A program made the position numbers and the translations under genes. The notes under the pieces are model-generated. The model had not been told where the DNA came from. It worked only from the letters and a program-made list of their open reading frames with translations, and ran no database searches. This document shows, piece by piece, positions 29,306 through 61,780 of a stretch of 64,000 bases of DNA; position 1 is the stretch's first letter, and every line of letters starts with the position of its first letter. Origin of the DNA: a virus; the IMG/VR virus record IMGVR_UViG_3300018059_000546; one strand, 5' to 3'.

Positions 29306-29316
29306 TCAACCTACCA

Positions 29317-29345: not shown

Positions 29346-29355
29346 TGGTAAACCA

Positions 29356-31372: not shown

Positions 31373-31560
31373 TTCTTAGAACCTTTTCCAATGAGCCTGA
31401 GGGCTTCTGTCGCAATAGAGTCGTCGAACTTCGTGTCGAATTCGATCGTGTCCTGAAATTGCATTTCGATGCCATCGTAGACAGCTATGTGTACGGTCAC
31501 TTCGTACCAGTTCGAATGTTTCACAGATCGGACGGCATGTCCTTTCATGGGAATGATCAT
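31369..31560 (-). CDS. hypothetical protein
   Basis: ATGA-coupled to dnaE. Confidence 0.55.
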   Translation of the reverse strand: MIIPMKGHAVRSVKHSNWYEVTVHIAVYDGIEMQFQDTIEFDTKFDDSIATEALRLIGKGSKK

Positions 31561-34500: not shown

Positions 34501-35174
34501 ACCTCTCTCATCTTGGACGGATCGTCCAACAGCTCATGTTTGAGCTCGTCGAAAGGAACACCCTGGAACTTATCTAAGGTAGCGTACGCTCCGAAACCAC
34601 CGATGCACGCCGAGGTCACGATGATATCTTCGCCGTGCTCTTTCAACATCTTAGCATCGATTCGAGGAAACCTGTACATGCCCTCGATGTTAGCTCTTGA
34701 AACTAGCTTGAAGAGATTTTGGCGACCCTTGTCACTCTTAGCGAGGAGCACCATGTGGTGGCGTCTATTGACAGGATCTCTCCACTTGGAAACGTTCTTC
34801 GTTTCGTCTTCGTTCTCTGTCGTAGAGGCGTCGCTCTCATCGGATTCTTTAGCAAGTTTCTTCGACTCTTTCTTCGCGTCCTTCTTAGCTTCTTCCTTCT
34901 CGAACTTCTGCTTGCGCCAGTCTTCGAGACTCGGATGGTAGTACGCCTCGCATCCTGCGATTTGTTTGAACTCCCTTCCCTTCTTTTTCAGATCTTCAGA
35001 CTTGAGATAAGCCTGCGCAAAGGAGTTACAATTCCCATGTTCTGTGAAAGCCATCGCATCCATCCCGTTTTCAAGACAGAAGTCGATGTGCTCCTCAACG
35101 GGCCCGAGCCCATCGCTGATCGAGGCATGTGTGTGGCTGTGGAGATTAACGAACCTCTTCGGACTATCGCTCAA
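31557..35174 (-). CDS. dnaE: DNA polymerase III alpha subunit (family C)
   Basis: PHP LHSHT..S..DG, GRGSGAGSLV, FERF, PDIDND, KSDILG, VYQEQ, YAFN.SH. Confidence 0.96.
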   Translation of the reverse strand: MSDSPKRFVNLHSHTHASISDGLGPVEEHIDFCLENGMDAMAFTEHGNCNSFAQAYLKSEDLKKKGREFKQIAGCEAYYHPSLEDWRKQKFEKEEAKKDAKKESKKLAKESDESDASTTENEDETKNVSKWRDPVNRRHHMVLLAKSDKGRQNLFKLVSRANIEGMYRFPRIDAKMLKEHGEDIIVTSACIGGFGAYATLDKFQGVPFDELKHELLDDPSKMREVQEELARAFDPIVDAVGEENVFAELQFNKLAPQHLVNRALIEMSNKTGIKLTAAADSHYCRPELWLEREIYKKLGRLRYEEINPDMLPKSKEALKCELYPKNAGQMWDSYNEYCNGMPFYDDETVRAAIERTHDIAHDMINPIKMDTGIKLPSFVVPPGQMPFEALYENCKTGMQQKNLWGKKEYMQRLKYELTIIKDKNFSQYFLLTKIIMDIAYDNMLVGAGRGSGAGSLVNYVLGITQIDPLKYGLMFERFISPARNDTPDIDNDVSDRNKLLDLLRDKAGTRNVVPISNFLTLQLKSLVKDLSKLHGIDFEEVNDVTKDLLEEVMPKANDGENKSLFSLKFDDCMEFSEKFRDFMGKYPQVAAPIKILYKQNRAIGKHASGVVICEDLDEKMPLIFIKGEVRSPWPEGMNMHCLEPLGFVKSDILGIETLRMLEDTIRMILRRHHNNPNPTWEDIKSWYEKNLHPAALGEMSDPKVYDHVFETRRFAGIFQYTNPQTQKYIHDFAPRNVQDLSMATAIYRPGPLAAKVDKLIIKARREKEIKKYDHPVIDSLLETTFGFIVYQEQIIQLANQLAGMSHGDCDKLRKALLKRSVDKIDSKALEAIELGKQFVTGAIANGLEEKIAQKLFDDIAAFAKYAFNYSHSLTYSVLSYQCAWLMTYYEPEWLCTYLQSMSNDDESKARASTDVRKLSYKIGKVDINESGNDWTLSKSGDTFYPSFTSLKGVGEAAVEEIERLRPYKDVNDLLWTETGEWKHSKFNKRVLDGLIKVEAFDSIDLVGKGKPFVHYRHMHHVLVENMEGLKAKKLKKPKIYAPGTGPDLSAPDRSLEPKDRLEKFIMQTREIPDWAPQEKAEFHRELSGSVSPLSLVSPDMRSLLLDKGIHSIDDVPTDGKRKAAWFIVMKGSMCYTKATSKPYVRLDIVGENGMINRMFCWNLTNENDIPKNNTAYIAVVEKTDFGFTLKKDLMELTTLTRSEVA

Positions 35175-35425
35175 TTATTCTCTCCCAAAATTTCCCATCG
35201 TGTAGATTCACTGTGGCTGTCGTGAACATGGTACACCCTGCCCGACATGAACATGAAGTGATCTTCACCATCGCCCCCAAGGTACAGTGCCTCGAGCCCG
35301 CCTGCATGGATCAGATCAGTTGACCCGAATGTCTCTTGACGAGCAACCCACATATGACCTATCCTACAGCGTACTAGGTCTCCAGTACCTAGCTCATCCA
35401 AGTAGTAGACTTTTTTCGCCGCCAC
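35171..35425 (-). CDS. hypothetical protein
   Basis: Coupled to dnaE. Confidence 0.55.
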   Translation of the reverse strand: MAAKKVYYLDELGTGDLVRCRIGHMWVARQETFGSTDLIHAGGLEALYLGGDGEDHFMFMSGRVYHVHDSHSESTRWEILGENN

Positions 35426-35470
35426 ACTCTAAAGGTATGCTAAAAACGTCAAAACAACCGTCTTAAAGAA

Positions 35471-36463
35471 TCAGAAATTCTGATCGAGCTCGATCGAAAA
35501 ATAGTCGATCGTACGCCTGATTCCTTCTTCGAAGGAAATCTCCGGATTCCAGCCTAGAACTTCTTGAGCAACTTTGATCGTAGGATTCCTACGCTTAGGA
35601 TCGTCCTGTGGAAGCGGGAGATAGGTCACCTTCGAAGTGGAACACATCGTTCGAACGATGAACTCGGCAGCTTCTCCAATTGTTCTTTCTTGCGGGTTTC
35701 CAAGGTTGATCGGAAAAGAATGCGGTTCGTCCTTGTGGAGGTAAGAGATGATTCCTCGAACGAGGTCGTCCACGTAGCAAAAACTCCTAGTTTGGGTTCC
35801 GTCTCCGTAGATCGTGATATCTTGTCCACAGAGAGCTTGGACCACGAAATTAGAAACTACTCGACCATCGTCGACCTGCATTCGCGGTCCGAAAGTATTG
35901 AATATCCGAACGACTCGTACATCGTGCCCCCTTTGAAGATGTTCGTAGCAGATAGTTTCTGCGACGCGCTTCCCTTCGTCGTAATTCGCTCGCGGACCCC
36001 ACGTATTGACGTGACCCTTGTACGATTCCTCCTGCGGATGAACCTCAGGATCTCCGTAGATTTCGCTCGTAGAAGCGTGAAGAACTCTGGAACCCAGGGC
36101 TGCGAACTTCATCGCAGTTTTCGTGCCCACGTAGCATGTATCCAGAGTTCCCATCGGGTCTTTTTGGTAGGCGACTGGTGAAGCGGGACAGGCGAGATTG
36201 AAATATGCGAAGGGTGCTTCACCTCGAGTGAAAGCTAGAACCTTTTCAACCAGAGTGGGTGAACACACATTCTCTTGGATCGTCCACAGAATTTGTCCCT
36301 TCGCAGATGCGAGAATAGATGCTTCGTCAAGATTCTTCCATCGACCTGTGCAGAGATTATCCACGCAGACGACATCGAAACCTTGTTCTATGAGAGAAAG
36401 AGTCAAGTGACTGCCGATGAATCCGGCTGCGCCGGCGATGACCGCGATTTTTCTAGAACTCAA
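35471..36463 (-). CDS. UDP-glucuronate decarboxylase (UDP-xylose synthase family)
   Basis: GAAGFIGSHL, NLACPASP..YQ.DP, STSEIYGDP, GPRANYDEGKR, RIFNTFGPRM..DDGRVVSNF, DDPKRR. Confidence 0.93.
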   Translation of the reverse strand: MSSRKIAVIAGAAGFIGSHLTLSLIEQGFDVVCVDNLCTGRWKNLDEASILASAKGQILWTIQENVCSPTLVEKVLAFTRGEAPFAYFNLACPASPVAYQKDPMGTLDTCYVGTKTAMKFAALGSRVLHASTSEIYGDPEVHPQEESYKGHVNTWGPRANYDEGKRVAETICYEHLQRGHDVRVVRIFNTFGPRMQVDDGRVVSNFVVQALCGQDITIYGDGTQTRSFCYVDDLVRGIISYLHKDEPHSFPINLGNPQERTIGEAAEFIVRTMCSTSKVTYLPLPQDDPKRRNPTIKVAQEVLGWNPEISFEEGIRRTIDYFSIELDQNF

Positions 36464-36957
36464 GATACCTCTTCGAGAAACCATCTAGATCTCGATTCGC
36501 CGATGGATTTCATCTGTTCTCGAAAGATCTGTCCTCGAATCATGAGGAACACGTGCGAATCAGACGTACTCGGAACCGATTTGCGACCAACGCAAGTGAC
36601 AATTTCGCCCGCGACCAGCGTCTGCCGTTGAATTTCTATCGCTCCAGCAAATGGAGGGCAATCTTTGACCTTGTAGGAGTTACCCAAACGAAACTTTTGC
36701 TTCACATCTACATCCTCTCGAAGAAAATGAATAAGATTGTCTCTCTCACCATTCTTGAGCCTGACCATGGAGTTGCCGAAGCTCCCGTTCATGATGTTGA
36801 GGTAAGCTTCCAGGAAATCCTCGTCTGTGAAGTTGCCCTTCAGGATCGTCGCTATTTCCCTGGCTTCGGAACAGTACTCGTCGAAGGGAGCTCCCATGTG
36901 GATCAAACCCATGGGGTCGACCAACGCGATCGCTCGTTCAATCTTATCAGGTGTCAC
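36460..36957 (-). CDS. hypothetical protein
   Basis: DPMGLI..GAP.DEY..EA motif; coupled. Confidence 0.6.
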   Translation of the reverse strand: MTPDKIERAIALVDPMGLIHMGAPFDEYCSEAREIATILKGNFTDEDFLEAYLNIMNGSFGNSMVRLKNGERDNLIHFLREDVDVKQKFRLGNSYKVKDCPPFAGAIEIQRQTLVAGEIVTCVGRKSVPSTSDSHVFLMIRGQIFREQMKSIGESRSRWFLEEVS

Positions 36958-36986
36958 AGACAGAATGTACTATGGTTCGAGCGGAA

Positions 36987-37634
36987 TTATCCGCCCATAC
37001 GTTGTTTCAACAGGTAGATTGAAGCTTCGTGGTTGTCAGCCAGACCCTGGAGGAAATTGTCCACCCCCAAAGAAAGGGTGCCGTTCGTTTCCATGCGCTT
37101 GTACAGAAGTTCGAGTATTCCGAGGAAGTGCATTTCTGCCTCGTAGGACCTCTGAGTTAGGTCGTTGGAGGTCGGCATTTCGGAGAGGTTGGAACACATG
37201 GCTTCTACAACGAGTGCTTCATGCGTCACCTGTTGCACGGGATGGATCATCATCATACTCGACGTGCCGATAGCTTTCTCTGCAACCTTATCGACTTCTT
37301 CATTCGTACTATTGTACAGACGTTCGAACAAAAGATGGTCACCGTAGAATGTATCTGCCGTCGCGGTCCAATGGCCAACCTGGTGAACGAAAGCCAGGGC
37401 TCTCACGCATGACAGAAGGATGGGAAGCTCGCAAGCCTCCGTACCATCGTAATCGACGATCATCTGCTCAAGAAGAGCTTCGTGATTTACGGACTCTGTG
37501 ACAATCTTGAAACTGAGTGTCTCAACGATCTTCTTAGAAGTATTTCGTGTACCATTTCGGGTCGGCATAATATTGCGCTTTCGTTTCCGGATCGGCTTCG
37601 CCGAACTCGTCCTGTTCCTTCTCGGCATGACCAA
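36987..37634 (-). CDS. ferritin/Dps-like protein
   Basis: HQVGHW...FYGDHLLFERLY...DKVAEK; start probably downstream of 37634. Confidence 0.8.
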   Translation of the reverse strand: MVMPRRNRTSSAKPIRKRKRNIMPTRNGTRNTSKKIVETLSFKIVTESVNHEALLEQMIVDYDGTEACELPILLSCVRALAFVHQVGHWTATADTFYGDHLLFERLYNSTNEEVDKVAEKAIGTSSMMMIHPVQQVTHEALVVEAMCSNLSEMPTSNDLTQRSYEAEMHFLGILELLYKRMETNGTLSLGVDNFLQGLADNHEASIYLLKQRMGG

Positions 37635-37923
37635 GTTCAGATTCTAGGTCTTCTTGGTCGATTTCGATTCCCGTCAACTTTCGTTGACGATTTGAGATGT
37701 CTGCGGTCAGCCTACGAATATCCGGATGTTCTTCTCTGGACCTAGCATCCTTGTAGGCTCGGCGGGTCATGTTTGTGAACTGATCACTGTCGAATTCGGC
37801 CTCAATGTCGTCGGGATCTGTCGATGGACGGGTGAAATTGACCATGCCCTCACCATCGTCCGTAGCGATCGGACCCAGTTCTAAAAGAGCCTGGACATAC
37901 TCTTTGATCAGGTCTCTGATCAC
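37534..37923 (-). CDS. acidic hypothetical protein with IRDLIKEY motif
   Basis: GTGA-coupled. Confidence 0.6.
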   Translation of the reverse strand: MIRDLIKEYVQALLELGPIATDDGEGMVNFTRPSTDPDDIEAEFDSDQFTNMTRRAYKDARSREEHPDIRRLTADISNRQRKLTGIEIDQEDLESELGHAEKEQDEFGEADPETKAQYYADPKWYTKYF

Positions 37924-38120
37924 TTCATCAACCCCATGGTCTTCAAAAAGTGGGAGATTTTCGAACGAGCATCGTCAGAAACCATCGTTCCTGGCTCATC
38001 CAGCATCAGAGAATCATCCGTTCCCTGCATCCAACGGTCATCCTTTTCTCGTTCGGATCTCTTCTTGGTTTCATCCAGGAGCTCTCTAAACAAGGAACGG
38101 AAGTTTTGACGGGTGCCCAC
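37920..38120 (-). CDS. hypothetical protein with FRSLFRELLDE motif
   Basis: TACTTA motif 4 nt upstream. Confidence 0.6.
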   Translation of the reverse strand: MGTRQNFRSLFRELLDETKKRSEREKDDRWMQGTDDSLMLDEPGTMVSDDARSKISHFLKTMGLMK

Positions 38121-38134
38121 AATCTAAGTATGGA

Positions 38135-39079
38135 TCAAATGAGACCGAGTAGCGTATCGATGTAAGGATCAGAAGACTTCGCAGACGATTCCGTGTAACC
38201 GTAGGGTAAATCGTATTCCTTCGCCCTGGTGGTGCTGTACGACACTCTCATTTCTGAGAGTTCTGTCTCTTTCTTTTGGAGGCAGCCCAATTGCTCGCTG
38301 GTGAACACCTCGCATGCTATCACACCACCTCGAGGGGGCCCCACATGGATAAAACGCGACAAGTATGTCTCGGCCCTACAGACAGCCCTGAATGAAGGGT
38401 TGTATTCCTTGTCGAACTCTTGTAGGGTGCTCTTCGTCTGGAGCACCAGAGACTTCCCGTGCTCGATCCCCTTGTCTGCGACAGTGTTTAGGTCCGAATA
38501 AAGTCGCTCGCGGATGGCGACGTCGATGGTGTAGTAGCCCTTTTTGAGGTATTTGGACACCCGAGACATGAAAAACGGACTATCTCCGTTAAGAAGGCTC
38601 AATTTCTTTTGTTCGCAAAGGGCTGGTACAGCCTTGTGATACCAAAAGCCCTTTCCGTCGAAAGCTACGGCGCAATTCGTGAAATCGAACTTCGAAATGA
38701 TCTCGACGGGAGTTCCCGTTCGGAACATGATGACCTGCAACTGCGGGCCACCGTCGGTGATATCGAGATCGATCGCATTCCTTCCGAAGGAGGGCCGGAA
38801 AGAAATGTTCCGATCCACGGCGGCAGTTGACAGGTAGACGTCGAGAGATTCTTGATTCGGGAACCACAGATCGACGTCCTTCCACAATCCGTAGCGAATC
38901 GAATTTCGATTTTTTCCTGTGGTCCTAGCTTCGAGTAGAGAAATGGCTGCGCCACCAGCGATGACAGCTCCCAAAGAAATAGCGAGGCGGATCATGTTGG
39001 CAGTAGTCTCATGCCTCGAAAAAGTATCAAGCATGGACAATAGAACTGTTTCATCGGGAAGAAATTCGTAATCGCTCAC
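38135..39079 (-). CDS. nucleotidyltransferase-superfamily protein (CCA/poly(A) polymerase-like head)
   Basis: IAGGA, KDVDLWF, FDFTNCAVAFD, RVSKYLKKGY. Confidence 0.75.
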   Translation of the reverse strand: MSDYEFLPDETVLLSMLDTFSRHETTANMIRLAISLGAVIAGGAAISLLEARTTGKNRNSIRYGLWKDVDLWFPNQESLDVYLSTAAVDRNISFRPSFGRNAIDLDITDGGPQLQVIMFRTGTPVEIISKFDFTNCAVAFDGKGFWYHKAVPALCEQKKLSLLNGDSPFFMSRVSKYLKKGYYTIDVAIRERLYSDLNTVADKGIEHGKSLVLQTKSTLQEFDKEYNPSFRAVCRAETYLSRFIHVGPPRGGVIACEVFTSEQLGCLQKKETELSEMRVSYSTTRAKEYDLPYGYTESSAKSSDPYIDTLLGLI

Positions 39080-50741: not shown

Positions 50742-51181
50742 TTTCCCGTCGATCCGAATCCTGAATCACCCCGGTCAGTCTGTTTCAGTTCTCCAATGCA
50801 AATTTCCGGTTGCGCGGTCATGTAAAAGACCATCTGTGCGATACGATCGCCGGCTTTGATGAAATAATCGAGATCCGATCTTGTATTACGAAGCATGACA
50901 ACGAGTTCTCCACGATACCCTGGATCAACGATCCCACCCACAGGATGAATGCCCTTCGCTGCGAGGCCAGAACGACCCTCGATCTTCGGAAAAATGGCCA
51001 TTGCTGACGTAGTGCTCGCTTCGCTGAGAGGGTCGAATCCTCCGTAAGCAATTCCCGTACGAACTTTTGTGACTGTACCTTCGGCAAGGTTGCAATCTTC
51101 TAATGCGTAAAGGTCGTATCCTACGTCAGTCTCGTGGGCCTTGGTGGGAAGCTTTGCTTTCTCACTTAGTAACTTGAACAT
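50738..51181 (-). CDS. dut: trimeric dUTPase
   Basis: GYDL, GRSG, GIVDPGYRGE, GDRIAQ, RGDSGFGSTG. Confidence 0.95.
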   Translation of the reverse strand: MFKLLSEKAKLPTKAHETDVGYDLYALEDCNLAEGTVTKVRTGIAYGGFDPLSEASTTSAMAIFPKIEGRSGLAAKGIHPVGGIVDPGYRGELVVMLRNTRSDLDYFIKAGDRIAQMVFYMTAQPEICIGELKQTDRGDSGFGSTGK

Positions 51182-52127
51182 CGCTCGCATTTTGACTCTC
51201 CAACGCTGCTTTCTTGATGTCTCGTTCCGCTTGTGCTGGAGACTTCACCAACGCAATTTCAAGAAGAAGTTCAAGTTTTTCCTTGTACTTTTCGTCTGTC
51301 CAGAGTTCGTTGAACTTCTCTTTGTAGAACTTCTTTTCATGAGAGAACTTCTCGTCTTCGTGATCCTTCAATGACGTTGCAGTCGTGAAGCTCTTCCATG
51401 CTCCCTTGCCCGAGATTGCCACGAACTCACCGTTAATTTCCTGTGGACCATGAGCGTCGCAATATTCTCTCAGAACGTCGAACATCTCCTCATGGTCTTT
51501 GAGACCAACTCCGAAAATGATTTGAAAACTTGCACGTCTAAAAGGTGCGGCAACTTTGTTTTTGATGAGTTTTGCTTCGACGTTGATGCCGATGAGCTCC
51601 CCGTTCTTTTCAATCTTGCTGCCGCCGATCAGTTGGATCCGAGTCGAAGCATGGAAGGGAATCGCCATACCTCCGGAGGTCGTCGTTGGGTCGCCGTAGA
51701 TTGTATTGTGAGAAAGTATACCATTTGAAAAATAATTGTGATTTTTTTCTACTTCGATATCTAGCACATCCATCATCTCATCGACGAGATGAATGCTCGC
51801 AGCGGTCCATTCTTTTCCGTCGAAGACTTCGAAATTCTTTACATCTAAAAGTGCAGTTGCTTCTACCCAATGCGGTTTTGAACTTTCTATTTTTACATAG
51901 AACGAATGCAACGGAGACACTTTTACTTCAGATTGGGTCGCATTCAAAACGTACTGTTTCGTTGCAGGTTTACGAACTATCTTCAATACGTTCGCGTAAC
52001 AAATTTGTTTTGTTTCAAAATCGAACGATTTTATTTTGAATTTCAGATGTGAAACATCTTTCGGATCGTCATACAACATTTTCGTATAATCGACGTCACA
52101 AAGTTTAAAAAATTCACTAATCTTCAT
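51162..52127 (-). CDS. recA: split-intein C-fragment (141 aa) fused to RecA C-terminal half
   Basis: Block B SPLH; ends DIEVEKNHNYFSNGILSHN|TIYGDPTTTSGG..FHASTRI..KNKVAAPFR. Confidence 0.93.
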   Translation of the reverse strand: MKISEFFKLCDVDYTKMLYDDPKDVSHLKFKIKSFDFETKQICYANVLKIVRKPATKQYVLNATQSEVKVSPLHSFYVKIESSKPHWVEATALLDVKNFEVFDGKEWTAASIHLVDEMMDVLDIEVEKNHNYFSNGILSHNTIYGDPTTTSGGMAIPFHASTRIQLIGGSKIEKNGELIGINVEAKLIKNKVAAPFRRASFQIIFGVGLKDHEEMFDVLREYCDAHGPQEINGEFVAISGKGAWKSFTTATSLKDHEDEKFSHEKKFYKEKFNELWTDEKYKEKLELLLEIALVKSPAQAERDIKKAALESQNASDVQVTK

Positions 52128-53023
52128 TCAATATTTTCCTTTAGTGCAACACGAATTTTAGCAACTAATGCATCTAATTTTTCGTCTGTCAGCCCGCATT
52201 CCCATACAACGTAACGTCGAAATCCTGTTTTTTTAGCTAATTCTCTTTTGGCAAAATCTCGACGCATCATTTTTTTCTGTGTATCATTTATGGGTCCACT
52301 TTTATAAACGTCGGGATTGCAGTGCCAATAATCTCCGTGAACTTCTATCAAAATATTTGTCCCAACAATGTGAACGTCAAAATAGAAAGGTTTCAAAAAA
52401 AACTCTACTTCAAAATCGATATTTTCTCTTCGAAGCCTATCATGCAAAAAACGTTCAGGCTTTGTAGGCGTGCAGAACTTGTATGCATCTGGATTTCGTG
52501 TATTGACAGGAAGCCCTAGTTTGGTTATTAGCGATGCTATAGCTTTTTTCCCATGTCCGACTACACGAGAAATTTCCACAAAGTAAACATGTTGTTTTGC
52601 TAGTTCGATTATCTTACGAATATCATCTGGTTCGAATAAAGAATTGCAATACGGTATCTGCGGTATTTTGCATTTTTCGACGAACAGTTGATTATAGTGG
52701 CGTGATGAAAGTCCAACTTCTTTTCTAATCACGATTGGATTTACACAGCGTAGTTCCCAAAGTTCATCCAATCGATTTAGCTGTTTAGCTGTCAATGCTT
52801 TTCTTTTTGCTGTTTTAGCCTTTGATATTGCCTCGCGTCGTGAAAGTGGAAATACTTTTCCCGTATTGGATTTCGCAATCTTGGCGCATCTGCTAGGTGA
52901 ATGTTTTTTTCCTCGGCGAGATGCACCGTAACATTGTTTACTACAAAATTGTGCCGGCATCGTAACGACCAATACTCCGCAATTTTTACAAGCTATTTGT
53001 AGACGTGTTCGAAGACGACCCAT
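52124..53023 (-). mobile_element. free-standing Vsr/DUF559-like endonuclease between the split recA halves
   Basis: CKNC..FCSKQC, NUMOD3-like repeats, TKPE..FDV..IEVHGDYWHCNP; AT-rich. Confidence 0.85.
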
Positions 53024-53025
53024 TC

Positions 53026-53724
53026 TCAATCTCTGATTATATCTATTTCTGTATCAGGATGTACACACCCGATTTTGTATCGAATCTGGTTCAGGAGGAT
53101 GAAGAGCACGTTGCTACTTCCGATGAGTTGCGTGATTCGACGCATGCCCTTGCTGATCGCACGGGCAGCCTGACCGATTCCGTCCTTGTCGACTTCTGCC
53201 ATGATCTCCGCCTTCGGTGGAGTCGCGGCGACAGAGTCCCAGATGATCGTGACCGGAACGTCCTTATTCGCTTCCTTGACACGGGCGATCGTGCTTTCTA
53301 CGACCTTGAACACGTCTTCGATGCAAGAAGGTTCAGCATAGACGAAGTTCTTACCAACGTCGATACCCAGATCCGAGAGAGTTTCAGGATTGACAGCGTT
53401 TTCCGTGTCGCAGTAAATGACAACTCCGCCCATTCTCTGGGTAGAAATAGCTGCTTGAGTCGCCATGTGCGACTTACCGATCGAAGGAGGTCCAAAGATC
53501 TCAACGATCCTACCTTCGGCGTATCCCCCATTTCGACGATTGCTGATGGCGTAGTCGAGAAGTCGAGAACCCGAAGAGATCCACCTCTTCACGTGGGTGG
53601 GAGAGATATCTGTACCAAGATTCCAAGCGATTCTCGACTGGTGCTCTCTATTCAGAGCGTCGATCAGGTCCTGCGAAAAATCATCATTCGCGTTGTTTTT
53701 TGGTGCATCGCTCTTCTTAGCCAT
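53026..53724 (-). CDS. recA: RecA N-terminal half fused to a 13-aa split-intein N-fragment
   Basis: GPPSIGKS, DTENA, WDSVAA, NQIRYKIG|CVHPDTEIDIIRD-stop. Confidence 0.93.
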   Translation of the reverse strand: MAKKSDAPKNNANDDFSQDLIDALNREHQSRIAWNLGTDISPTHVKRWISSGSRLLDYAISNRRNGGYAEGRIVEIFGPPSIGKSHMATQAAISTQRMGGVVIYCDTENAVNPETLSDLGIDVGKNFVYAEPSCIEDVFKVVESTIARVKEANKDVPVTIIWDSVAATPPKAEIMAEVDKDGIGQAARAISKGMRRITQLIGSSNVLFILLNQIRYKIGCVHPDTEIDIIRD

Positions 53725-53774: not shown

Positions 53775-54542
53775 TTAAAATTGGGTCAAAATCTCGTATC
53801 CTGTTGCAGTAACAAGTATGGTATGTTCCCATTGAGCTGACAAAGATCCGTCGACAGTTCTAACTGTCCATTCGTCCGAATCGATTTGTATTTCAGAACT
53901 GCCCACGCATACCATGGGTTCTATTGTAAAAGTCATACCCGGCTGCAATCTCATTCCGGTCCCACGAGTTCCGTGATGGAATACTTGCGGCGGTGTATGG
54001 AATTTTCTTCCGATACCGTGCCCTACGAACTCTCGAACGACGCTGAAACCTTCGCGTTCGACGAACTCTTGGATCGTGGCACCGATATCTCCCAACCTTG
54101 CACCGGGTTTGACCTGCTCAATGCCCATTTGGAGGGCGCGCTCGGCCACCTCGGTGACACGCTGTGCGTCTTTCCCAACCTTGCCGATTAGGAATGTGGC
54201 AGACGTATCTCCGTGAAACTGGTCGTAAATAGATGTCACGTCAACATTGACAAGATCTCCAGATTTCAGCTTGACTTTTCCGGGAATTCCGTGGCACACG
54301 ACGTGATTAATCGACGTGCAACAACTCTTGGGAAATGGCGGAAGAGTTCCGCCCGCTCCCCTGTATCCCAAAGGAGCAGGAATCGCACTTCGACTTAGAG
54401 TGAAGTCGTGAACGAGTGTGTTGATATCGTCCGTCGTCATACCTTCACAGATCGTGCGGCGAACGAGCGAAAGGGTCTCGGCCGCTAAACGACCGGAGAC
54501 CCTCATCGCATCGATTTCTTTCTGAGACTTGATTTCTATCAC
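53775..54542 (-). CDS. map: methionine aminopeptidase type I
   Basis: CTSIN.VVCHGIP, NVDV, HGDTS, GHGIG..FH, TIEPM, AQWEHT. Confidence 0.96.
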   Translation of the reverse strand: MIEIKSQKEIDAMRVSGRLAAETLSLVRRTICEGMTTDDINTLVHDFTLSRSAIPAPLGYRGAGGTLPPFPKSCCTSINHVVCHGIPGKVKLKSGDLVNVDVTSIYDQFHGDTSATFLIGKVGKDAQRVTEVAERALQMGIEQVKPGARLGDIGATIQEFVEREGFSVVREFVGHGIGRKFHTPPQVFHHGTRGTGMRLQPGMTFTIEPMVCVGSSEIQIDSDEWTVRTVDGSLSAQWEHTILVTATGYEILTQF

Positions 54543-54791
54543 TCAAAGACTCTTCATGAAGTCGCCATTCAAAACGCACGACACTGTAAAAAGTTTTTGC
54601 CCAGCACCAAAGAAGACCAAAATGTTTCCGAATTTTGAATCATCCCAGCCCGGCGGGCCTCCGAGATCTGAAAAGAAATTCCCAGGATTTTCGATCTCGC
54701 CTGCTAGGACTGCTACGGCTCCCCGTGGGAGTTCTTTCATGTGGCCACAAGTGGCTAAAAACCACCACGATTGTTGCAACAGGAAAATCAA
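54543..54791 (-). CDS. hypothetical protein
   Basis: TTGA-coupled. Confidence 0.45.
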   Translation of the reverse strand: MIFLLQQSWWFLATCGHMKELPRGAVAVLAGEIENPGNFFSDLGGPPGWDDSKFGNILVFFGAGQKLFTVSCVLNGDFMKSL

Positions 54792-55126
54792 GACAACGCC
54801 AACTTCAAATGAAGCAAGAACTCTCTTGATGCTGAATCTGTTGCGAAAGCCGTAAGACTATCATCTAGATCGGGTTCTCGAAACATCGAAACTCTCATTC
54901 CTTTTCTCGTGAGCCTATCGATCATCTTGAGAAGAGCCACTTCGTTATCGACCTTCAAGAAGGCGATGTGGTTAGAGGCTTCGAACCAATCCTGTTCCAC
55001 CTTGGGGAATTCAGAGATGAACTGCCTCATGGCGTGCATGCCCTGGACCGCTTGGGGACCTGGAGCGAGATCGCTTCGAACGACAACGAAGAACTTGTCT
55101 CCGTGCTTTACTGTTGGCTGATCCAT
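54788..55126 (-). CDS. peptidyl-tRNA hydrolase, Pth2-like
   Basis: VVVRSDL.PG.QAVQ.MHA, FREPDL..SLTA, L.HLKLA. Confidence 0.8.
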   Translation of the reverse strand: MDQPTVKHGDKFFVVVRSDLAPGPQAVQGMHAMRQFISEFPKVEQDWFEASNHIAFLKVDNEVALLKMIDRLTRKGMRVSMFREPDLDDSLTAFATDSASREFLLHLKLALS

Positions 55127-55467
55127 TCGATCAGCACCTCCTCGCTGTGGTACTTCTCCTGCCAAGGACTGACATAGTGCTTTACAAGCCTGGTCAGTTC
55201 TGCAGCAGAAACCTTCTTTTGTACCGACGTCGATTTCTCGATCGTCTTGTAATTCATCCCTTTGAGGTAAGCCCTTACGAGGTTGAGGTAGCGCACCTCA
55301 GACTTCATCTCGAGCAGTTGCATCGCAACTTTCTCTCGCAGGGTTTCTACCTTGCGCAGGCTCTTCCGTTTCCTAATCTCCTCAGAGAGAGATCTCACAT
55401 GAGCCCTAAACGAGATCTTGCGAGCAACGGAAACCGTGTAATACATCTTATTCTTATCGTTCATCAT
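55108..55467 (-). CDS. basic hypothetical protein upstream of Pth2
   Basis: GGAGG SD; RYLNLVRAYLKGMNYKTIE motif. Confidence 0.65.
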   Translation of the reverse strand: MMNDKNKMYYTVSVARKISFRAHVRSLSEEIRKRKSLRKVETLREKVAMQLLEMKSEVRYLNLVRAYLKGMNYKTIEKSTSVQKKVSAAELTRLVKHYVSPWQEKYHSEEVLIEWISQQ

Positions 55468-55572
55468 AGCATCCTCCATCAATCGTTTAGCATCTTCAAA
55501 ATTGTTTTAGAATCTGAAGATGACGGAGGACCTCTGCAGTGCTACCAGAAATTCAACATATCTTTGCTCCTC
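55465..55572 (-). promoter_or_regulatory. putative translational attenuator: minigene MLNFW* with anti-SD helix
   Basis: GAGGAG SD, ATG 55559, TAG 55542-55544; GUCCUCCGUCA can pair with UGAUGGAGGAU, which covers the downstream SD. Confidence 0.6.
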
Positions 55573-55894
55573 GACCCGAAATCGAGACTCCGGTTGCTGA
55601 ACAGTACGACGTCGGCTCCCGGTCCCAAAACCCCCAACGAGTCGTCCCATCAATACGGTCGAGCATTTCTTTACGAAGCTTGTCTCGAGCAGCACGATCG
55701 GTGTCAGTGGGAGTAGCAGTCAGGATCTCCTTCTTTGGTTCTCCTGGCGGCTCGGGCGGAACGATTCCTGTGACGTTGACAAAAACGAGGTTAAGATGTT
55801 GTTTGAGCATCTTCACCTGAGATTCGTTCAGTTCTTTTGGATCTCCCATTTCGAGAAACCCCTGCAACCAGTAGCAAAAATCCTGTGAGTTCAT
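55553..55894 (-). CDS. hypothetical protein (FCYWLQG family, paralog 1)
   Basis: MNSQDFCYWLQGFLE. Confidence 0.7.
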   Translation of the reverse strand: MNSQDFCYWLQGFLEMGDPKELNESQVKMLKQHLNLVFVNVTGIVPPEPPGEPKKEILTATPTDTDRAARDKLRKEMLDRIDGTTRWGFWDREPTSYCSATGVSISGRGAKIC

Positions 55895-56115
55895 TTCGTT
55901 CTTTCGTTGGAAAGTGAGCACGTGAGGATGCCCAGACCTTTTGCGAACGGTGAACTAGATCTGAACCCGATCGCACCCTCAGTAGGTTTAGAATCTTTCT
56001 TGAGAGCGACTTCGAGCTTGCTCTGAATGATTCCTGCTTCGCGAGCAGAAATTCCATCGCTCCCCGCGATATCAAAATAGCCCTGAAGCCAGTAGCAGAA
56101 TTCGTTCGGAGTCAT
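55891..56115 (-). CDS. hypothetical protein (FCYWLQG family, paralog 2)
   Basis: MTPNEFCYWLQGYFD. Confidence 0.7.
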   Translation of the reverse strand: MTPNEFCYWLQGYFDIAGSDGISAREAGIIQSKLEVALKKDSKPTEGAIGFRSSSPFAKGLGILTCSLSNERTK

Positions 56116-56360: not shown

Positions 56361-56576
56361 CTACCACGGATGCTCGTCTTCGGTAGATTCATCGATGACA
56401 TCGTCGCTCTTGAATCGAGTGTACGACAATCCCTCGTTTTTGACGAGCTTGATAACGATGATTCCTCCAAGAGCGAAGGGGCCTTCGTAAATATCCCATC
56501 CGTCAGTAAGAAGTTTCTCAATTTCGGGTTCCTTCGAAAGGAACTGACCCATCTCGGCCATGATTAATTTTTGCAC
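56361..56576 (-). CDS. hypothetical protein
   Basis: LLTDGWDIYEGPF motif. Confidence 0.6.
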   Translation of the reverse strand: MQKLIMAEMGQFLSKEPEIEKLLTDGWDIYEGPFALGGIIVIKLVKNEGLSYTRFKSDDVIDESTEDEHPW

Positions 56577-56770
56577 TACTTGGCACCATTCATTGCTTCT
56601 GTTTGAGATGCACGAGAGTACTTCCTGAGAAAGACGACAAACAAATCTTCATAAATTTGCTTGTCTACAATGTCCCAATTTCCGTCTTTAAGAGTTTCAT
56701 TCAAGTCAGAAAGCTTCGCTCTCGTCTCAATAACTTCGCAAAACCAAACTTTAGAGTCTACTTTTTCCAT
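56576..56770 (-). CDS. hypothetical protein
   Basis: LKDGNWDIV motif, loosely similar to its neighbour. Confidence 0.5.
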   Translation of the reverse strand: MEKVDSKVWFCEVIETRAKLSDLNETLKDGNWDIVDKQIYEDLFVVFLRKYSRASQTEAMNGAK

Positions 56771-56867
56771 CTTTGTTCTTCTTTCTGAGTACAGTAGCGC
56801 CCTCGGCGGATCCTGCCACCACATTGTCCATTTTAGAGATGGATGCTTTGCTTTTAAGCTACGAGGG

Positions 56868-56898
56868 CAAAAACTAGAGAGCCCCTTTCGGGGCTCCC
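56868..56898 (-). terminator. intrinsic terminator
   Basis: GGGAGCCCC-GAAA-GGGGCTCTC hairpin followed by TAGTTTTT on the minus strand. Confidence 0.8.
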
Positions 56899-59134: not shown

Positions 59135-59958
59135 TTGCTTTCTCTGTTATTCTTTCTTCGAGTTTCCCAACCTTTTCGAGATTTCGCTTGCCGTTGTTCT
59201 ACCGTTTGGCTATCAGCAATCTTTTGAGCACGAATTTTGACCTGCTCAGGATTGTTTTTACACCATTCCGACAACTTCATAGAAATCTTTTTTCCAAACT
59301 CTTCATTGAAGAGTGGGTCAGTTGCGAGCTTATAACACATAGCTGCGTTACCTAATCGAGCATTCGCCGCTTGCGTTTCAAGATATTTCTTTTTAAATTC
59401 TTCATCATTATCCAAGTGATTTCTAAGCGTAATTTGAGCTTTGTTGGCGTGCTCTTTACACTTGTGTAAGTTTTCTTCAAGCCATGAAATTCGAGCGATG
59501 CTCAATTTTTGTCTTGTCTCATTAGAAACATCATTCTCTAGATAAAATGCTAAAAGTTGTTGTTTCTTTGCCTGACGAGCAGTTTGCGATAATTTTCGAA
59601 GTCCTTTGACACTCCCACCGTTGCCACCCTTGTTGAAATTCATTCCGCCGTGCTCGCACCACGTACGATAGACGACAATAGATTCAATTTCAACAGCATC
59701 CATCTCTTCTTTTGAAGAACACCTTCTGATAAGACGAATTTGAAGATTTTCGACTCCTCCGTGAGTTTTCATAAAAGTATGAAATCGAAGAAAGTTTTTT
59801 CCCGGTGGACGATTTTCTGTGAGAAGACATATTGCTCGGCGATGTTCACGAGCACGAACTTCAAATCCATGAAGAGCTTGGCCAACGTAAATGTCTCGAT
59901 CATTGCAAGTTGGGCAGAGGCAACTACAGCAATAGACATCAAACAGATTTATTTTCAT
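59131..59958 (-). mobile_element. GIY-YIG homing endonuclease
   Basis: DVY...IYVGQ...R..EH...E...GMNFNKGG; AT-rich. Confidence 0.8.
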
Positions 59959-60544
59959 CTCGTTTTTCTTCTTCGCAAGAAATCCTATCTGCTTGATGTA
60001 CAAATATAGCAAGCAATGGTTCTTTCATTGCATATGGTTTGTTTTCATCCAATACCGGACCATCGTTCAATAGAATTGCTGCAAATTCGTTGTACGAAAT
60101 TCTAATGTCAAAATGTTGGCACAAAAAGACTCCTGCATGAGAAGTTGTTAGAAATGGCATCTTCTTATTGATTTCGTACACATTTCCCTTATTACGATGC
60201 CAATCGCTAGATTGCGGAAGATATCGTTCTGCGGACGGCATACCGAGCTTTCCAATGTCATGGAACAATGACGCAAATATAAGTTCTTCTTTAGAAAAAT
60301 CAATAGAATCTTTAAACGTTTGCATAAGTTTCATTCCATTTTTAAGAACTCTTAGCGAATGTTCAACAAGTCCGCCAGGTGTCGCTCTGTGAAACTCTGT
60401 TCTACTCGATGCAGGACACATGGCCAATCTCTCTCCGAAATGTTCGAAGAACTGCTTGAGCCCTTCCTGCCGATGCGCTCCGGTTTTACCGGCCAGAGCT
60501 TCGAATTTGTTGTAGTTCTCAACGATCTGTTCAGGTGTCAACAT
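59939..60544 (-). CDS. HD-domain hydrolase (YhaM-like)
   Basis: PAS..FH..PGGLVEHSL, FHDIGK, HQAD. Confidence 0.88.
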   Translation of the reverse strand: MLTPEQIVENYNKFEALAGKTGAHRQEGLKQFFEHFGERLAMCPASSRTEFHRATPGGLVEHSLRVLKNGMKLMQTFKDSIDFSKEELIFASLFHDIGKLGMPSAERYLPQSSDWHRNKGNVYEINKKMPFLTTSHAGVFLCQHFDIRISYNEFAAILLNDGPVLDENKPYAMKEPLLAIFVHQADRISCEEEKRDENKSV

Positions 60545-60550
60545 ACCCTA

Positions 60551-61780
60551 CTAAGGTTCAATAATCGAGGGTGGTTTTGCAAAGTCTCCGATCGTCAAGG
60601 GAAACACACAGTCCAGCTGAGAACAGTAGAATCCCTTGGAAACGAGGGCAGAAAGCTTGGAGAATTCTTCATCGGAAATTTCCCCCACGAGAGCATCGTG
60701 AACAAGGAACATGGGTTTGAATTCTATCCCGAGGAATTCGATGTCCATGACCAACTTATCGAACCCAATGTGTGCCACGTCGACCCCTGAAGACTGGATG
60801 TAGTTGTTCAGAAGGGCTGGCTTATTGATCTCGATCGTCTTACCGAAAAAGTTCTTAGTGCTGTCTCCGTACGTTTCTCTCTCAATCCTAGAAAGAAGCT
60901 CCTTGATTTTGAAGTGCTTCTTGACAGTGGAGAGAATGACACGACAATCATCCGCCGGCATTTCGATGTGAGCCGACAAGGTGTCCACGGACATACCGTA
61001 AAGGATGCCGAGGACCGCGACCTTTGTCTTGTCCCGAGAGAGCTTTCCAGAGAAGCACGCTTCAGTGAGTTCTGTATAGAGATCTCCCTTGGAAGCGGGC
61101 AACTTTGCCAACGCGGCGAGTAACCTTGGCTCTAACGAAGAGAAGTCGATCTGGATGATCCTAGATTTCTTCGGTGCGATGAATAAGTTTCTGTGTTCCT
61201 TGGGAAGGGTTAGAACCATCGGTCCTGTGTTCACGGTCAGACGTCCGGTACGGGTCCCAAAGAAATTGTAGATCGGTGGTCTCACGAACCCATCTTCATG
61301 GGGAAGCAACGAATCTAGATGTGCGAGCAAAGAATCGTTCGCAGAATCGAAAGCTTTGCGAAGCAACCTCTCATCGACCTTGAACGGTTTAAATTTCGAG
61401 ACAAGACGACGGAAATTTCGATATCCAGTCTCGTAGTAGACATCGTTCACGTCCATCAGAGAAACGGCAGTGAGGAAGTTTTTGAGCGTCTCTTTGTAGA
61501 CGGTCGACGGCATGCACAAACTCCACGGAATGGACTTCACATGGGACGGAAGAATGCGAGAGTACACCTTTTGATTCACCACTCCTGGATTGTACTCTAC
61601 TGCCAACCCATTCACTCTCAGAAGGGTTTTCAAGCACTTGTCAACTAACCCTTCGCTTCTATCAAAGATCCATTCTGGTGACACCAGATCGTCCGACCAC
61701 GAAATCTTTCCAGAATCGTAGGCTACATGCTTGAGCGCGCCTACCACATCCCTGTGGACTAGAAATTTCTTAGTCTGCAT
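60551..61780 (-). CDS. family A DNA polymerase, polymerase domain only
   Basis: TRTGRL, IDFSSLEPR (motif A), RDKTK...LYG (motif B), NNYIQS, VHDAL (motif C). Confidence 0.88.
   Translation of the reverse strand: MQTKKFLVHRDVVGALKHVAYDSGKISWSDDLVSPEWIFDRSEGLVDKCLKTLLRVNGLAVEYNPGVVNQKVYSRILPSHVKSIPWSLCMPSTVYKETLKNFLTAVSLMDVNDVYYETGYRNFRRLVSKFKPFKVDERLLRKAFDSANDSLLAHLDSLLPHEDGFVRPPIYNFFGTRTGRLTVNTGPMVLTLPKEHRNLFIAPKKSRIIQIDFSSLEPRLLAALAKLPASKGDLYTELTEACFSGKLSRDKTKVAVLGILYGMSVDTLSAHIEMPADDCRVILSTVKKHFKIKELLSRIERETYGDSTKNFFGKTIEINKPALLNNYIQSSGVDVAHIGFDKLVMDIEFLGIEFKPMFLVHDALVGEISDEEFSKLSALVSKGFYCSQLDCVFPLTIGDFAKPPSIIEP

What the first reader, a model, noticed from the sequence alone, without database searches (positions are those of the whole stretch)
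54788..55572. Hidden minigene/anti-Shine-Dalgarno attenuator (MLNFW-amber-HCRGPP) before a peptidyl-tRNA hydrolase operon
Seen: a strong SD (GAGGAG) and ATG at 55559 begin ATG TTG AAT TTC TGG TAG. The same frame continues CAC TGC AGA GGT CCT CCG (H-C-R-G-P-P) and ends at TGA 55479-55481, right before the GGAGG SD of the next gene. The Gly-Pro-Pro codons (GUCCUCCGUCA) can form an 11-bp helix (two G-U pairs) with UGAUGGAGGAU and hide that SD. An inner inverted repeat CATCTTCA/TGAAGATG lies between them. Downstream are an unknown basic protein, a Pth2-like hydrolase and MAP. Known: RAPP/RGPP motifs occur in ribosome arrest peptides, and minigenes shed peptidyl-tRNA that needs Pth. Inference: a ribosome lingering at the amber codon, or reading through to RGPP, opens the SD. 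This would be a phage sensor of termination or tRNA stress that induces translation-rescue genes.
Basis: partly seen in the sequence, partly recalled or inferred. Interest (0 to 1): 0.82.

Follow-up and report, generated by a model that had tools for sequence, protein, structure and literature searches.

The report
Stop-codon-gated ribosome-stalling leader in phage
A roughly 350-kb phage puts a tiny leader gene in front of a small translation-related operon; its ribosome-stalling Arg-Gly-Pro-Pro motif, which also hides the operon's ribosome-binding site, is reached only if a UAG stop is read through. The phage carries its own UAG-reading tRNA nearby, so this looks like a natural, untested switch that reports stop-codon read-through.

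Summary

Thirteen related phage loci share one design:
- a start codon, then 1-13 codons and an in-frame UAG;
- 2-21 further codons, then R-x-P-P (RGPP in 10, RDPP in 2, RGSP in 1);
- the Pro codons, or those just after them, pair with the SD of a conserved 119-aa gene ("gene X"), which is followed in 12 loci by a PTH2-like gene.

Arg, Gly and Pro vary only synonymously, so this frame is probably translated beyond the UAG.

Eleven of the 13 loci have one, and 15 of 19 stem pairs show compensatory changes. Two further loci with a UCA tRNA carry UGA in the leader instead.

Folding keeps the SD paired with a ribosome waiting at UAG. It loosens, unevenly, only with a ribosome on the Pro-Pro codons.

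Best reading: a suppressor-tRNA-gated RGPP arrest leader that unmasks gene X, PTH2-like and MAP. Nothing has been tested experimentally, and what the operon does is unknown.

This scan noted the same design earlier in at least eight other genomes. I reached this reading before looking those notes up.

The parts
56798..56868 (-). Amber-suppressor tRNA gene, anticodon CUA, anticodon loop CUCUAAA
   Evidence: Rfam RF00005, 41.9 bits against a gathering score of 29. ARAGORN missed it, and it has an odd T-loop. Homologues lie in 8 relatives; across the 9 aligned sequences 15 of 19 stem pairs show compensatory changes and the anticodon loop YUCUAAA is kept.
55553..55894 (-). Upstream small gene (FCYWLxGFLEMG family). 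Its last codons (Ile, Cys, stop) overlap the leader start.
   Evidence: ORF list; hit to phrog_28500; protein alignment A3 shows the annotated frame and a C-terminal Cys are conserved.
55567..55572 (-). Shine-Dalgarno sequence of the leader (GAGGAG), 7 nt before its ATG
   Evidence: Sequence. An SD-like core 4-9 nt before an in-frame ATG is present in all 9 close relatives, although the ATG position shifts.
55479..55559 (-). Leader ORF of 26 codons including the in-frame UAG: MLNFW-UAG-HCRGPP, then 14 more codons and TGA
   Evidence: The UAG frame has 4 stops in total across 9 relatives between the UAG and the gene X start, against 19 and 13 in the other two frames.
55542..55544 (-). Gating stop codon UAG, followed by C
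   Evidence: UAG is kept in all 13 loci, while the upstream gene's own stop varies among TGA, TAA and TAG. It is UGA in two loci whose tRNA has anticodon UCA.
55524..55535 (-). Arg-Gly-Pro-Pro codons (AGA GGT CCT CCG): candidate arrest motif
   Evidence: R-x-P-P is in frame after the stop in 13 of 15 loci, RGSP in the other 2. Arg uses 5 different codons, Gly 3, second Pro 3; the first Pro is CCA in L054, which breaks the RNA pair but keeps Pro. RGPP is the strongest RAPP-like arrest core (PMC12992588).
55521..55531 (-). Anti-SD arm (GUCCUCCGUCA), overlapping the Gly-Pro-Pro codons
   Evidence: Minimum-energy fold. Pair counts on alignment A4: the core pairs are invariant, and the inner end shows G-C, G-U and A-U.
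55491..55522 (-). Inner hairpin (8-bp stem) that brings the anti-SD and the SD together
   Evidence: Every relative has an inner hairpin here; in L002, L006 and L012 its sequence is unrelated.
55471..55481 (-). SD arm (UGAUGGAGGAU), holding the GGAGG SD of gene X
   Evidence: GGAGGAT-NN-TATG is invariant in 9 relatives. P(SD paired) is 0.92-1.00 in free RNA.
55108..55467 (-). Gene X: 119 aa, all-helical, no known family
   Evidence: Homologues are 119 aa. A profile search gives 221 hits. No Pfam family and no PDB fold match.
54788..55126 (-). PTH2-like gene; its start overlaps the end of gene X by 19 nt
   Evidence: Pfam PF01981, 28.1 bits, E 2.5e-6. It follows gene X in 12 of the 13 UAG-type loci, directly in most; L016 was not examined downstream.
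54543..54740 (-). Small ORF (about 65 aa). Its stop directly abuts the MAP start.
   Evidence: No family hit.
53775..54542 (-). Methionine aminopeptidase (type I)
   Evidence: Pfam Peptidase_M24, 171.8 bits.

Best explanation
This is a translational switch gated by suppressor tRNA.

OFF state. Ribosomes start at the leader ATG (55559). Its SD lies in the last codons of the upstream gene, so leader translation is probably coupled to that gene. Without efficient amber suppression they terminate at UAG (55544). The Gly-Pro-Pro codons stay paired with the SD of gene X, and gene X with its tightly packed followers (PTH2-like, a small ORF, MAP) is not translated.

ON state. The phage's own tRNA(CUA) (56798..56868) decodes the UAG. 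The ribosome goes on three codons to Arg-Gly-Pro-Pro and stalls there. This is an RGPP-type nascent-peptide arrest; at the least it is a slow Pro-Pro step. Its footprint covers the anti-SD arm and the 5' arm of the inner hairpin, so the SD and AUG of gene X are free for new 30S subunits.

Shown here:
- the anatomy;
- its conservation;
- the synonymous-codon signature of R-G-P-P;
- the predicted masking of the SD;
- a conserved tRNA with covarying stems;
- agreement between the leader's stop codon and the tRNA anticodon.

Inferred:
- that read-through happens;
- that the ribosome arrests;
- that arrest turns the operon on;
- why the phage ties these genes to suppression. My guess is that gene X and PTH2-like deal with the suppressor tRNA or with the consequences of suppression.
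For: 1. Conservation. Thirteen loci share ATG, 1-13 codons, UAG, 2-21 codons, R-x-P-P, and an end near the gene X start. They range from close relatives to ones with about 21% gene X identity or matched only by profile (E 4e-14 and 2e-10), and from GC-rich to AT-rich. The ATG sits at three different positions yet is always in frame with the UAG.

2. Coding signature after the stop. Arg is AGA, AGG, CGA, CGC or CGT. Gly is GGT, GGC or GGA. The second Pro is CCG, CCT or CCA. In L054 the first Pro is CCA, which weakens the RNA pair but keeps Pro. L006 has an in-frame 9-nt insert. The UAG frame holds 4 stops, against 19 and 13 in the other frames. Its register relative to the gene X ATG is the same in 6 of 9, despite lengths of 74-89 nt. 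It ends in an ATGA overlap in three loci and is fused in frame to gene X in two.

3. SD masking. P(SD paired) is 0.92-1.00 in free RNA in 9 relatives. It is unchanged with a ribosome at UAG. With a ribosome on Pro-Pro it is 0.31-0.99: below 0.65 in six, 0.73 and 0.83 in two, unchanged in L007. The same pairing is seen in L052 and L053, and just after RGPP in L054.

4. The tRNA. A tRNA(CUA) is in the window and in 10 of the 12 other UAG-type loci. Fifteen of 19 stem pairs show compensatory changes and the loop YUCUAAA is kept. In L052 and L053 it lies about 35 nt before the leader.

5. Stop and anticodon agree. Two loci found through a tRNA with a UCA loop carry UGA-gated leaders. L198 has FW-UGA-IPPARGPP before a gene X homologue. 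L182 has MI-UGA-...RGSP before a PTH2-like gene and a tRNA(UCA). No UAG-type leader was found in those 22 loci.

6. Literature. RGPP is the most robust RAPP-like arrest core, is refractory to EF-P and is avoided in proteomes (PMC12992588). RxPP was selected as a stalling motif (cited in PMC10951233). SecM and MifM show that an arrested ribosome can open an SD hairpin.
Against: - There is no experimental or expression data of any kind.
- The literature states that a RAPP-like core alone is insufficient and needs the adjacent N-terminal residues. Here the nascent chain at the stall is only about 11 residues.
- Two loci have RGSP and two have RDPP. Their arrest activity is unknown.
- L012 has the leader, but I found no tRNA(CUA) in its 6.7-kb locus or among its 47 clustered tRNAs. 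That record is about 76% complete.
- The window's tRNA has an atypical T-loop and ARAGORN did not call it.
- In L003 and L001 the frame stops again inside the hairpin: a second UAG in L003 and a UGA in L001.
- Predicted unmasking is partial. P(SD paired) stays at 0.99 in L007 because an alternative pairing is predicted.
- The anti-SD helix shows only modest covariation, because the SD cannot vary.
Confidence: 0.7

Rival explanations
1. An ordinary SD-masking hairpin plus a short coupling ORF. The mini-ORF really ends at UAG. It only passes ribosomes on from the upstream gene, which reinitiate or 'shunt' across the base of the hairpin to gene X. The tRNA(CUA) nearby is unrelated.
For: The mini-ORF start overlaps the upstream gene's stop. 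The UAG lies 9 nt before the helix. That geometry recalls short-ORF-dependent shunting, which is from my own knowledge and is known only in eukaryotic viruses. TAG is a normal stop in this window: 9 of 75 long minus-strand ORFs end in it.
Against: - It does not explain why the stop is always UAG while the upstream gene's stop varies.
- It does not explain why Arg before Gly-Pro-Pro is kept through five codons, or why the frame beyond the stop is kept and depleted of stops.
- It does not explain why a matching suppressor tRNA travels with the locus, or why UGA leaders go with UCA tRNAs.
- A ribosome at UAG does not free the SD in the model.
Confidence: 0.12
2. The leader senses host termination or tRNA stress (RF1 shortage, Pth shortage, Trp starvation). 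It does so by pausing at UGG-UAG, or by near-cognate read-through, or as a minigene that sheds peptidyl-tRNA. It then induces rescue genes.
For: UAG followed by C is a weak termination context (my own knowledge). The codon before UAG is UGG in 6 of 13 loci. The operon encodes a PTH2-like protein.
Against: - Pausing at UAG leaves the SD paired.
- The codon before the stop is also AUG, UCG, UAC, AAA or UUC in relatives, so this is not a Trp sensor.
- A dedicated, conserved tRNA(CUA) in the same gene cluster is a simpler source of read-through.
Confidence: 0.1
3. The phage lineage uses TAG as a sense codon late in infection. On this reading the 'leader' is simply a small gene, or an N-terminal extension of gene X, that happens to contain TAG, with no regulatory role for R-x-P-P.
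For: In L007 and L052 the UAG frame runs in frame into gene X. Suppressor tRNAs are typical of recoded phages (bioRxiv 10.1101/2021.08.26.457843, listed).
Against: - No long gene in the 64-kb window has an in-frame TAG. TAG ends genes, and one ends in TAG TAG.
- In L002 the upstream gene ends in TAG where relatives have TGA or TAA.
- In most loci the leader frame is out of frame with gene X.
- Beyond R-x-P-P the peptide is not conserved, whereas the overlap with the anti-SD is.
Confidence: 0.05

Closest known systems
RAPP/RGPP-type regulatory arrest peptides (ApdA, ApdP, ApcA; SecM with RAGP; the Streptomyces lividans RAPP/RGPP uORFs): PMC7897499, PMC10951233, PMC10987492, PMC12992588
   Same: A small ORF directly upstream of the regulated gene. 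An Arg-(Ala/Gly)-Pro-Pro core. As in SecM and MifM, the expected logic is that the arrested ribosome covers an RNA arm that otherwise hides the downstream SD.
   Different: - The motif lies behind an in-frame stop codon, so it is reached only on read-through.
- The nascent chain is about 11 residues, with no signal peptide or membrane segment, so there is no force-dependent release.
- The Pro-Pro codons are themselves the anti-SD.
- It is in a phage, next to a suppressor tRNA.
- Arrest has not been shown.
Leader-peptide translational attenuation (ermC/ErmCL, cat, cmlA)
   Same: A short leader ORF with its own SD. The SD of the downstream gene is held in a hairpin whose 5' arm lies in the leader. 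A stalled ribosome frees it.
   Different: The inducer there is an antibiotic bound in the exit tunnel. Here the proposed inducer is a tRNA that decodes a stop codon.
prfB (RF2) autoregulation through an in-frame UGA
   Same: An in-frame stop codon early in an ORF works as a sensor of decoding or termination capacity at that codon.
   Different: In prfB the outcome is a +1 frameshift within the gene itself. Here it is read-through by a dedicated tRNA, followed by a stall that controls a separate downstream gene. I found no slippery site (see what was rejected).
Phage stop-codon recoding with suppressor tRNAs (code 15 phages; bioRxiv 10.1101/2021.08.26.457843, PMC9523058), and the 'orphan' CUA tRNAs of standard-code jumbo phages such as XacN1 (PMC5852040)
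   Same: A phage-encoded tRNA(CUA). The idea that suppression times or gates gene expression.
   Different: The window uses the standard code, so the only candidate target found here is one codon in a leader. The XacN1 authors report that they found no target for that phage's CUA tRNAs.
AMD1 read-through followed by a stall (PMC13025110)
   Same: Ribosomes that read through a stop codon meet a stalling element downstream.
   Different: It is eukaryotic, the stall is far downstream, and it limits expression of the same mRNA instead of unmasking a start site.

Membership tests
RAPP/RGPP-type arrest-peptide leader | Core motif Arg-(Ala/Gly)-Pro-Pro in the leader's reading frame | tested here: met
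   AGA GGT CCT CCG at 55535..55524, in the frame of the leader ATG. RGPP is in 11 of 15 loci, RDPP in 2 and RGSP in 2.
RAPP/RGPP-type arrest-peptide leader | A small ORF directly upstream of the regulated gene, whose SD is hidden by a structure that a ribosome at the motif would cover | tested here: met
   Folds with and without a ribosome footprint. The leader ends between 14 nt before and 11 nt after the A of the gene X ATG in 8 of 13 loci, or is fused in frame in 2.
RAPP/RGPP-type arrest-peptide leader | Demonstrated elongation arrest (peptidyl-tRNA accumulation, toeprint) at the motif | not testable with these tools
   This needs in vitro translation or a reporter assay.
RAPP/RGPP-type arrest-peptide leader | Residues N-terminal of the core contribute to arrest | tested here: inconclusive
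   In most loci a hydrophobic or aromatic residue lies before the stop, and Leu plus Cys/Ala/Ile/Pro follow it. There is no functional test, and the chain is far shorter than the characterised examples.
Sec/YidC 'monitoring substrate' (SecM, MifM, VemP, ApdA/P) | An N-terminal signal or membrane segment, so that arrest is released by pulling force; the downstream gene encodes localisation machinery | tested here: not met
   The leader is 26 codons with no such segment. The downstream genes are gene X, PTH2-like and MAP.
Amber-suppressor tRNA | A cloverleaf maintained by selection, with anticodon CUA | tested here: met
   Rfam, 41.9 bits; the alignment places CUA at the anticodon. Fifteen of 19 pairs show compensatory changes across 9 sequences.
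Amber-suppressor tRNA | It is aminoacylated and decodes UAG in vivo | not testable with these tools
   The amino-acid identity could not be inferred: comparison with 29 phage tRNAs gave no clear parent.
Stop-codon-recoded phage (TAG as a sense codon) | Many genes with in-frame TAG | tested here: not met
   In the 64-kb window no long gene is split by TAG, and TAG ends 9 of 75 long ORFs. Late genes outside the window were not seen.
Peptidyl-tRNA hydrolase PTH2 (PF01981) | Pfam match above the curated cut-off | tested here: met
   28.1 bits against 23, E 2.5e-6, covering profile positions 3-81 of 115. This is a weak, partial match, and catalytic residues were not checked.

The most novel reading that the evidence does not exclude
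The tRNA(CUA), the UAG/RGPP leader, gene X and the PTH2-like gene form one self-contained module. It measures the phage's own stop-codon read-through and feeds back on it, for example by acting on the suppressor tRNA, on release factor 1, or on the peptidyl-tRNAs and stalled ribosomes that suppression creates. That would give the unexplained suppressor tRNAs of standard-code jumbo phages, XacN1 among them, their first natural target. It would also be the first natural leader peptide that senses a tRNA through a stop codon.
Probability: 0.35. Interest if true: 0.92.

Novelty: new variant of a known kind. Interest (0 to 1): 0.85.

Why it matters
- Arrest-peptide leaders are known to sense protein export, small molecules and antibiotics. 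None is known to sense a tRNA by placing a stop codon in front of the arrest motif.
- Large phages that use the standard code often carry CUA tRNAs with no known purpose. The XacN1 authors searched for targets and found none (PMC5852040). A conserved one-codon target in a regulatory leader would answer that question.
- It would be directly testable with a simple reporter.
- It would also be a ready-made natural part for read-through-dependent gene control.
- It points to gene X and the PTH2-like protein as players in suppression biology.

Tried and rejected
Searches that gave nothing useful:
- DNA and protein searches of the deposited-phage collection found no relative of the region or of gene X. 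The MAP and PTH2-like proteins found only distant hits.
- Protein-pattern scans of viral and metagenome contigs for gene X found nothing. A loose anti-SD-to-SD pattern gave 115 unrelated hits, none encoding gene X.
- Gene X function: no Pfam family, no convincing Foldseek or VIA-align match (best Z 6.0, generic helical hairpins), and no Atlas lead.
- A TAG-recoded genome: no long gene in the window is split by TAG.
- Suppressor tRNA in the L012 phage: none among its 47 tRNAs.
- The tRNA's amino-acid identity could not be inferred.

Readings considered and rejected:
- A +1 or -1 frameshift at the stop. There is no slippery site, and it is the zero frame that is conserved.
- A gene-60-style hop from the codon before UAG. 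Matching landing codons are not conserved.
- A sigma-70-like promoter in the 3' half of the spacer. The spacing is lost in the window.
- Pairing of GUAGC with the bases around the gene X AUG. It would be only 4-5 weak pairs across a 9-nt bulge, and L052 and L053 lack those flanks.
- A small UCUG/CAGA hairpin around the stop. It is not conserved.
- A ribosome waiting at UAG as the opener. The SD stays paired in the model.
- A long open -1 frame over the upstream gene as a frameshift product. It is only 4-9 codons long in L002, L006 and L007.
Full report
**What is there**

The element lies on the minus strand of a window that belongs to an uncultured phage of about 350 kb. The exact gene X protein sits on a 350,418-bp contig.

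Reading 5' to 3', a small gene of the FCYWLxGFLEMG family ends ATA TGT TGA at 55553. Its last codons contain GAGGAG (55572..55567) and, 7 nt later, an ATG (55559) in another frame. That frame reads five codons and then TAG (55544..55542). It continues CAC TGC AGA GGT CCT CCG and closes at TGA (55481..55479).

The Gly-Pro-Pro codons pair with the stretch that holds GGAGG (55477..55473). This is the SD of a 119-aa gene starting at 55467, which I call gene X. An 8-bp inner hairpin lies between the two arms. The helix is in the minimum-energy fold.

Gene X is followed by three tightly packed genes:
- a PTH2-like gene whose start overlaps the end of gene X by 19 nt;
- a small ORF;
- a type I methionine aminopeptidase whose GTG start directly follows the previous stop.

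**Conservation**

The deposited-phage collection has no relative. The large protein collections gave gene X homologues, and their contigs gave nine distinct close sequences: window, L016, L003, L005, L002, L001, L006, L007 and L012.

A profile search found a family of 221 proteins. From it came four more distant loci with the same neighbourhood: L052, L053, L054 and L061.

In all 13, the region before gene X contains:
- a start codon, with an SD-like core 4-9 nt upstream in about 10 of them;
- 1-13 codons, then UAG;
- 2-21 codons, then R-x-P-P, or RGSP in L005.

The anti-SD lies on the Pro codons, or in L054 on the codons just after them.

The ATG is not at a fixed place. In four sequences it overlaps the upstream gene's Cys codon. 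In three it follows that gene's stop. In L012 it stands alone in a 77-nt spacer behind a GGAGG. Yet it is always in frame with the UAG. In L002, L006 and L007 the open stretch before the UAG is only 4-9 codons, so an in-frame ATG there is unlikely by chance.

The upstream gene's own stop varies among TGA, TAA and TAG, while the leader's stop is always UAG.

**Is the frame beyond the UAG translated?**

Several independent signs say yes.

- Synonymous variation. Arg is encoded by five different codons (AGA, AGG, CGA, CGC, CGT), Gly by three, and the second Pro by three.
- In L054 the first Pro is CCA. This puts a mismatch into the RNA helix but keeps Pro.
- The Arg codon lies outside the helix, so RNA pairing does not explain why it is kept.
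- L006 has a 9-nt insert after the UAG, which preserves the frame.
- Between the UAG and the gene X start, the UAG frame has 4 stops in total over nine sequences. The other two frames have 19 and 13.
- The distance from the UAG to the ATG varies (74-89 nt) but keeps the same value modulo 3 in six of nine. As a result the leader frame ends in an ATGA overlap with gene X in L016, L006 and L012. It ends 11 nt before the ATG in the window. In L007 and L052 it runs in frame into gene X.
- Beyond R-x-P-P the peptide is not conserved. That fits a spacer that only has to be translatable and to fold.

**The missing piece: a suppressor tRNA**

ARAGORN found no tRNA in the window. In the distant loci, however, it called a tRNA with anticodon CUA beside the operon. 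In L052 and L053 this tRNA ends about 35 nt before the leader ATG.

Rfam then found the window's copy at 56798..56868 (-), at 41.9 bits against a threshold of 29. CUA is aligned at the anticodon and the loop is CUCUAAA. It lies on the same strand, 1.24 kb upstream of the leader, with five small ORFs between.

Homologous genes are in L016, L003, L006, L002, L001 and L007. L054 has a long-arm CUA tRNA after its PTH2-like gene. L061 has two CUA tRNAs after its PTH2-like gene. That makes 11 of 13 loci. L005's contig is too short to tell, and L012 has none in view.

The nine aligned tRNAs show compensatory changes in 15 of 19 stem pairs and keep the loop YUCUAAA, so the gene is maintained by selection.

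The phage uses TAG as an ordinary stop. Nine of 75 long ORFs end in it, one of them in TAG TAG, and no long gene is split by TAG.

**A covariation test**

Earlier notes of this scan claim that the leader stop always matches the tRNA anticodon. I looked those notes up after reaching the reading above, and tested the claim in a small way.

A scan of viral contigs for the same kind of tRNA with a UCA loop gave 22 loci. Two of them hold the module with UGA in the leader.

- L198 has a tRNA(UCA). Its leader ends its first part in Phe-Trp, then UGA, then four codons and RGPP. This lies directly before a distant gene X homologue (profile E 7.7e-5; hhalign E 5.8e-5 over the conserved C-terminal half).
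- L182 has a leader of Met-Ile-UGA, six codons and RGSP. It ends in an ATGA overlap with the next gene, and is followed by a PTH2-like gene and a tRNA(UCA).

No UAG-type leader was found in those 22 loci. Two cases are few, but they are the kind of paired change that the model predicts.

**How it most likely works**

I folded each leader with a stretch forced single-stranded to mimic a ribosome.

| State | P(SD paired), nine relatives |
|---|---|
| Free RNA | 0.92-1.00 |
| Ribosome with UAG in the A site, up to 16 nt unwound | 0.92-1.00 |
| Ribosome on the Pro-Pro codons | 0.31-0.99 (below 0.65 in six, 0.73 and 0.83 in two, unchanged in L007) |

So waiting at the stop cannot open the site, while a ribosome at R-x-P-P usually can.

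RGPP is reported as the most robust of the RAPP-like arrest cores. It is refractory to EF-P and avoided in proteomes (PMC12992588). RxPP came out of a genetic selection for stalling motifs (cited in PMC10951233).

The logic then parallels SecM and MifM: an arrested ribosome holds the SD hairpin open. The difference is that the arrest motif is locked behind a stop codon, and only the phage's suppressor tRNA can pass it. An arrest, if long-lived as reported for RGPP cores, would also amplify a low read-through rate, since one stalled ribosome allows many initiations.

Read-through, arrest and induction are all inferences; none has been measured. Weak points:
- the nascent chain is very short;
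- the literature finds that the core alone is insufficient;
- some loci carry the RGSP and RDPP variants;
- L012 lacks a visible tRNA;
- the window's tRNA has an odd T-loop.

**What it is for**

This is unknown. Gene X is an all-helical protein with no family and no informative fold match. The PTH2 match is weak.

Leader sensors usually control genes that act on the thing sensed. The tRNA, the leader, gene X and the PTH2-like gene travel together from GC-rich to AT-rich phages. I therefore think the operon either tunes suppression or handles its by-products. That is a guess.

**Comparison and novelty**

The closest known systems are:
- the RAPP/RGPP arrest-peptide leaders;
- ermC-type attenuators;
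- for the idea of an in-frame stop used as a sensor, prfB.

This element meets the sequence and layout features of an RGPP arrest leader. It lacks the export signal of the Sec/YidC monitoring substrates. I found no paper describing a stop-codon-gated arrest leader or a leader that senses a suppressor tRNA. The XacN1 paper states that no target was found for that phage's CUA tRNAs.

I class it as a new variant of a known kind. This scan had already noted the same design in at least eight other genomes. Those notes agree with this report but are not independent evidence.

Noticed in passing
window 51162..53724 (-): The RecA/UvsX-like gene is in pieces. A 232-aa N-terminal part (53026..53724) is followed by an ORF with homing-endonuclease matches in PHROGs (52124..53029) and then a 321-aa ORF (51162..52127). 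Relatives (L001, L002) have one uninterrupted gene of about 398 aa.
   Followed up: no
L060 2223..2259 (Xanthomonas phage XacN1, AP018399 about 243722..243758): ORF364 of XacN1 carries a weak PTH2-like domain. It is preceded by GAGGA, 8 nt, then ATG AAG TAG and four codons that run in frame into the annotated ATG, which has no SD of its own. The gene may really start upstream with an amber at codon 3. If so it is a candidate target for XacN1's two CUA tRNAs, for which the authors found none. There is no R-x-P-P here.
   Followed up: partly
L198 1318..1394 and 4278..4895; L182 (reverse strand) 2959..3768: These are opal versions of the module: tRNAs with anticodon UCA, and leaders gated by UGA instead of UAG.
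   Followed up: partly
window 56798..56868 (-): The window's CUA tRNA and those of its closest relatives share an unusual T-arm: four pairs plus a U-U, and a loop of the type GNCRGRA instead of TTCGAAT. This is probably why ARAGORN missed four of the five copies with this T-arm, and Rfam's standard filters three (neither called L016, L006 or L002). Part of the ORF called at 56576..56824 overlaps the tRNA, so its listed start is probably wrong.
   Followed up: partly
window 55553..56115 (-): Two adjacent paralogous small genes both start with the motif FCYWLQG (55891..56115 and 55553..55894). Both match phrog_28500 and phrog_35763, families of unknown function.
   Followed up: no
L051 (IMG/VR record of L012, bases 22500..38500): The 363-kb relative carries 47 tRNA genes in one 15-kb cluster. 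They cover most amino acids, but ARAGORN called no tRNA-Trp and no suppressor.
   Followed up: partly
window 59939..61780 (-): A 409-aa DNA polymerase A fragment ends in two consecutive TAG codons. It is directly followed, in the same frame, by an HD-domain gene. In a phage that makes an amber suppressor, a double amber is a notable way to end a gene.
   Followed up: no
L054 4560..6552: A UvrD-type helicase gene of more than 1500 aa with Hint/intein Pfam hits lies next to the module in this distant relative.
   Followed up: no
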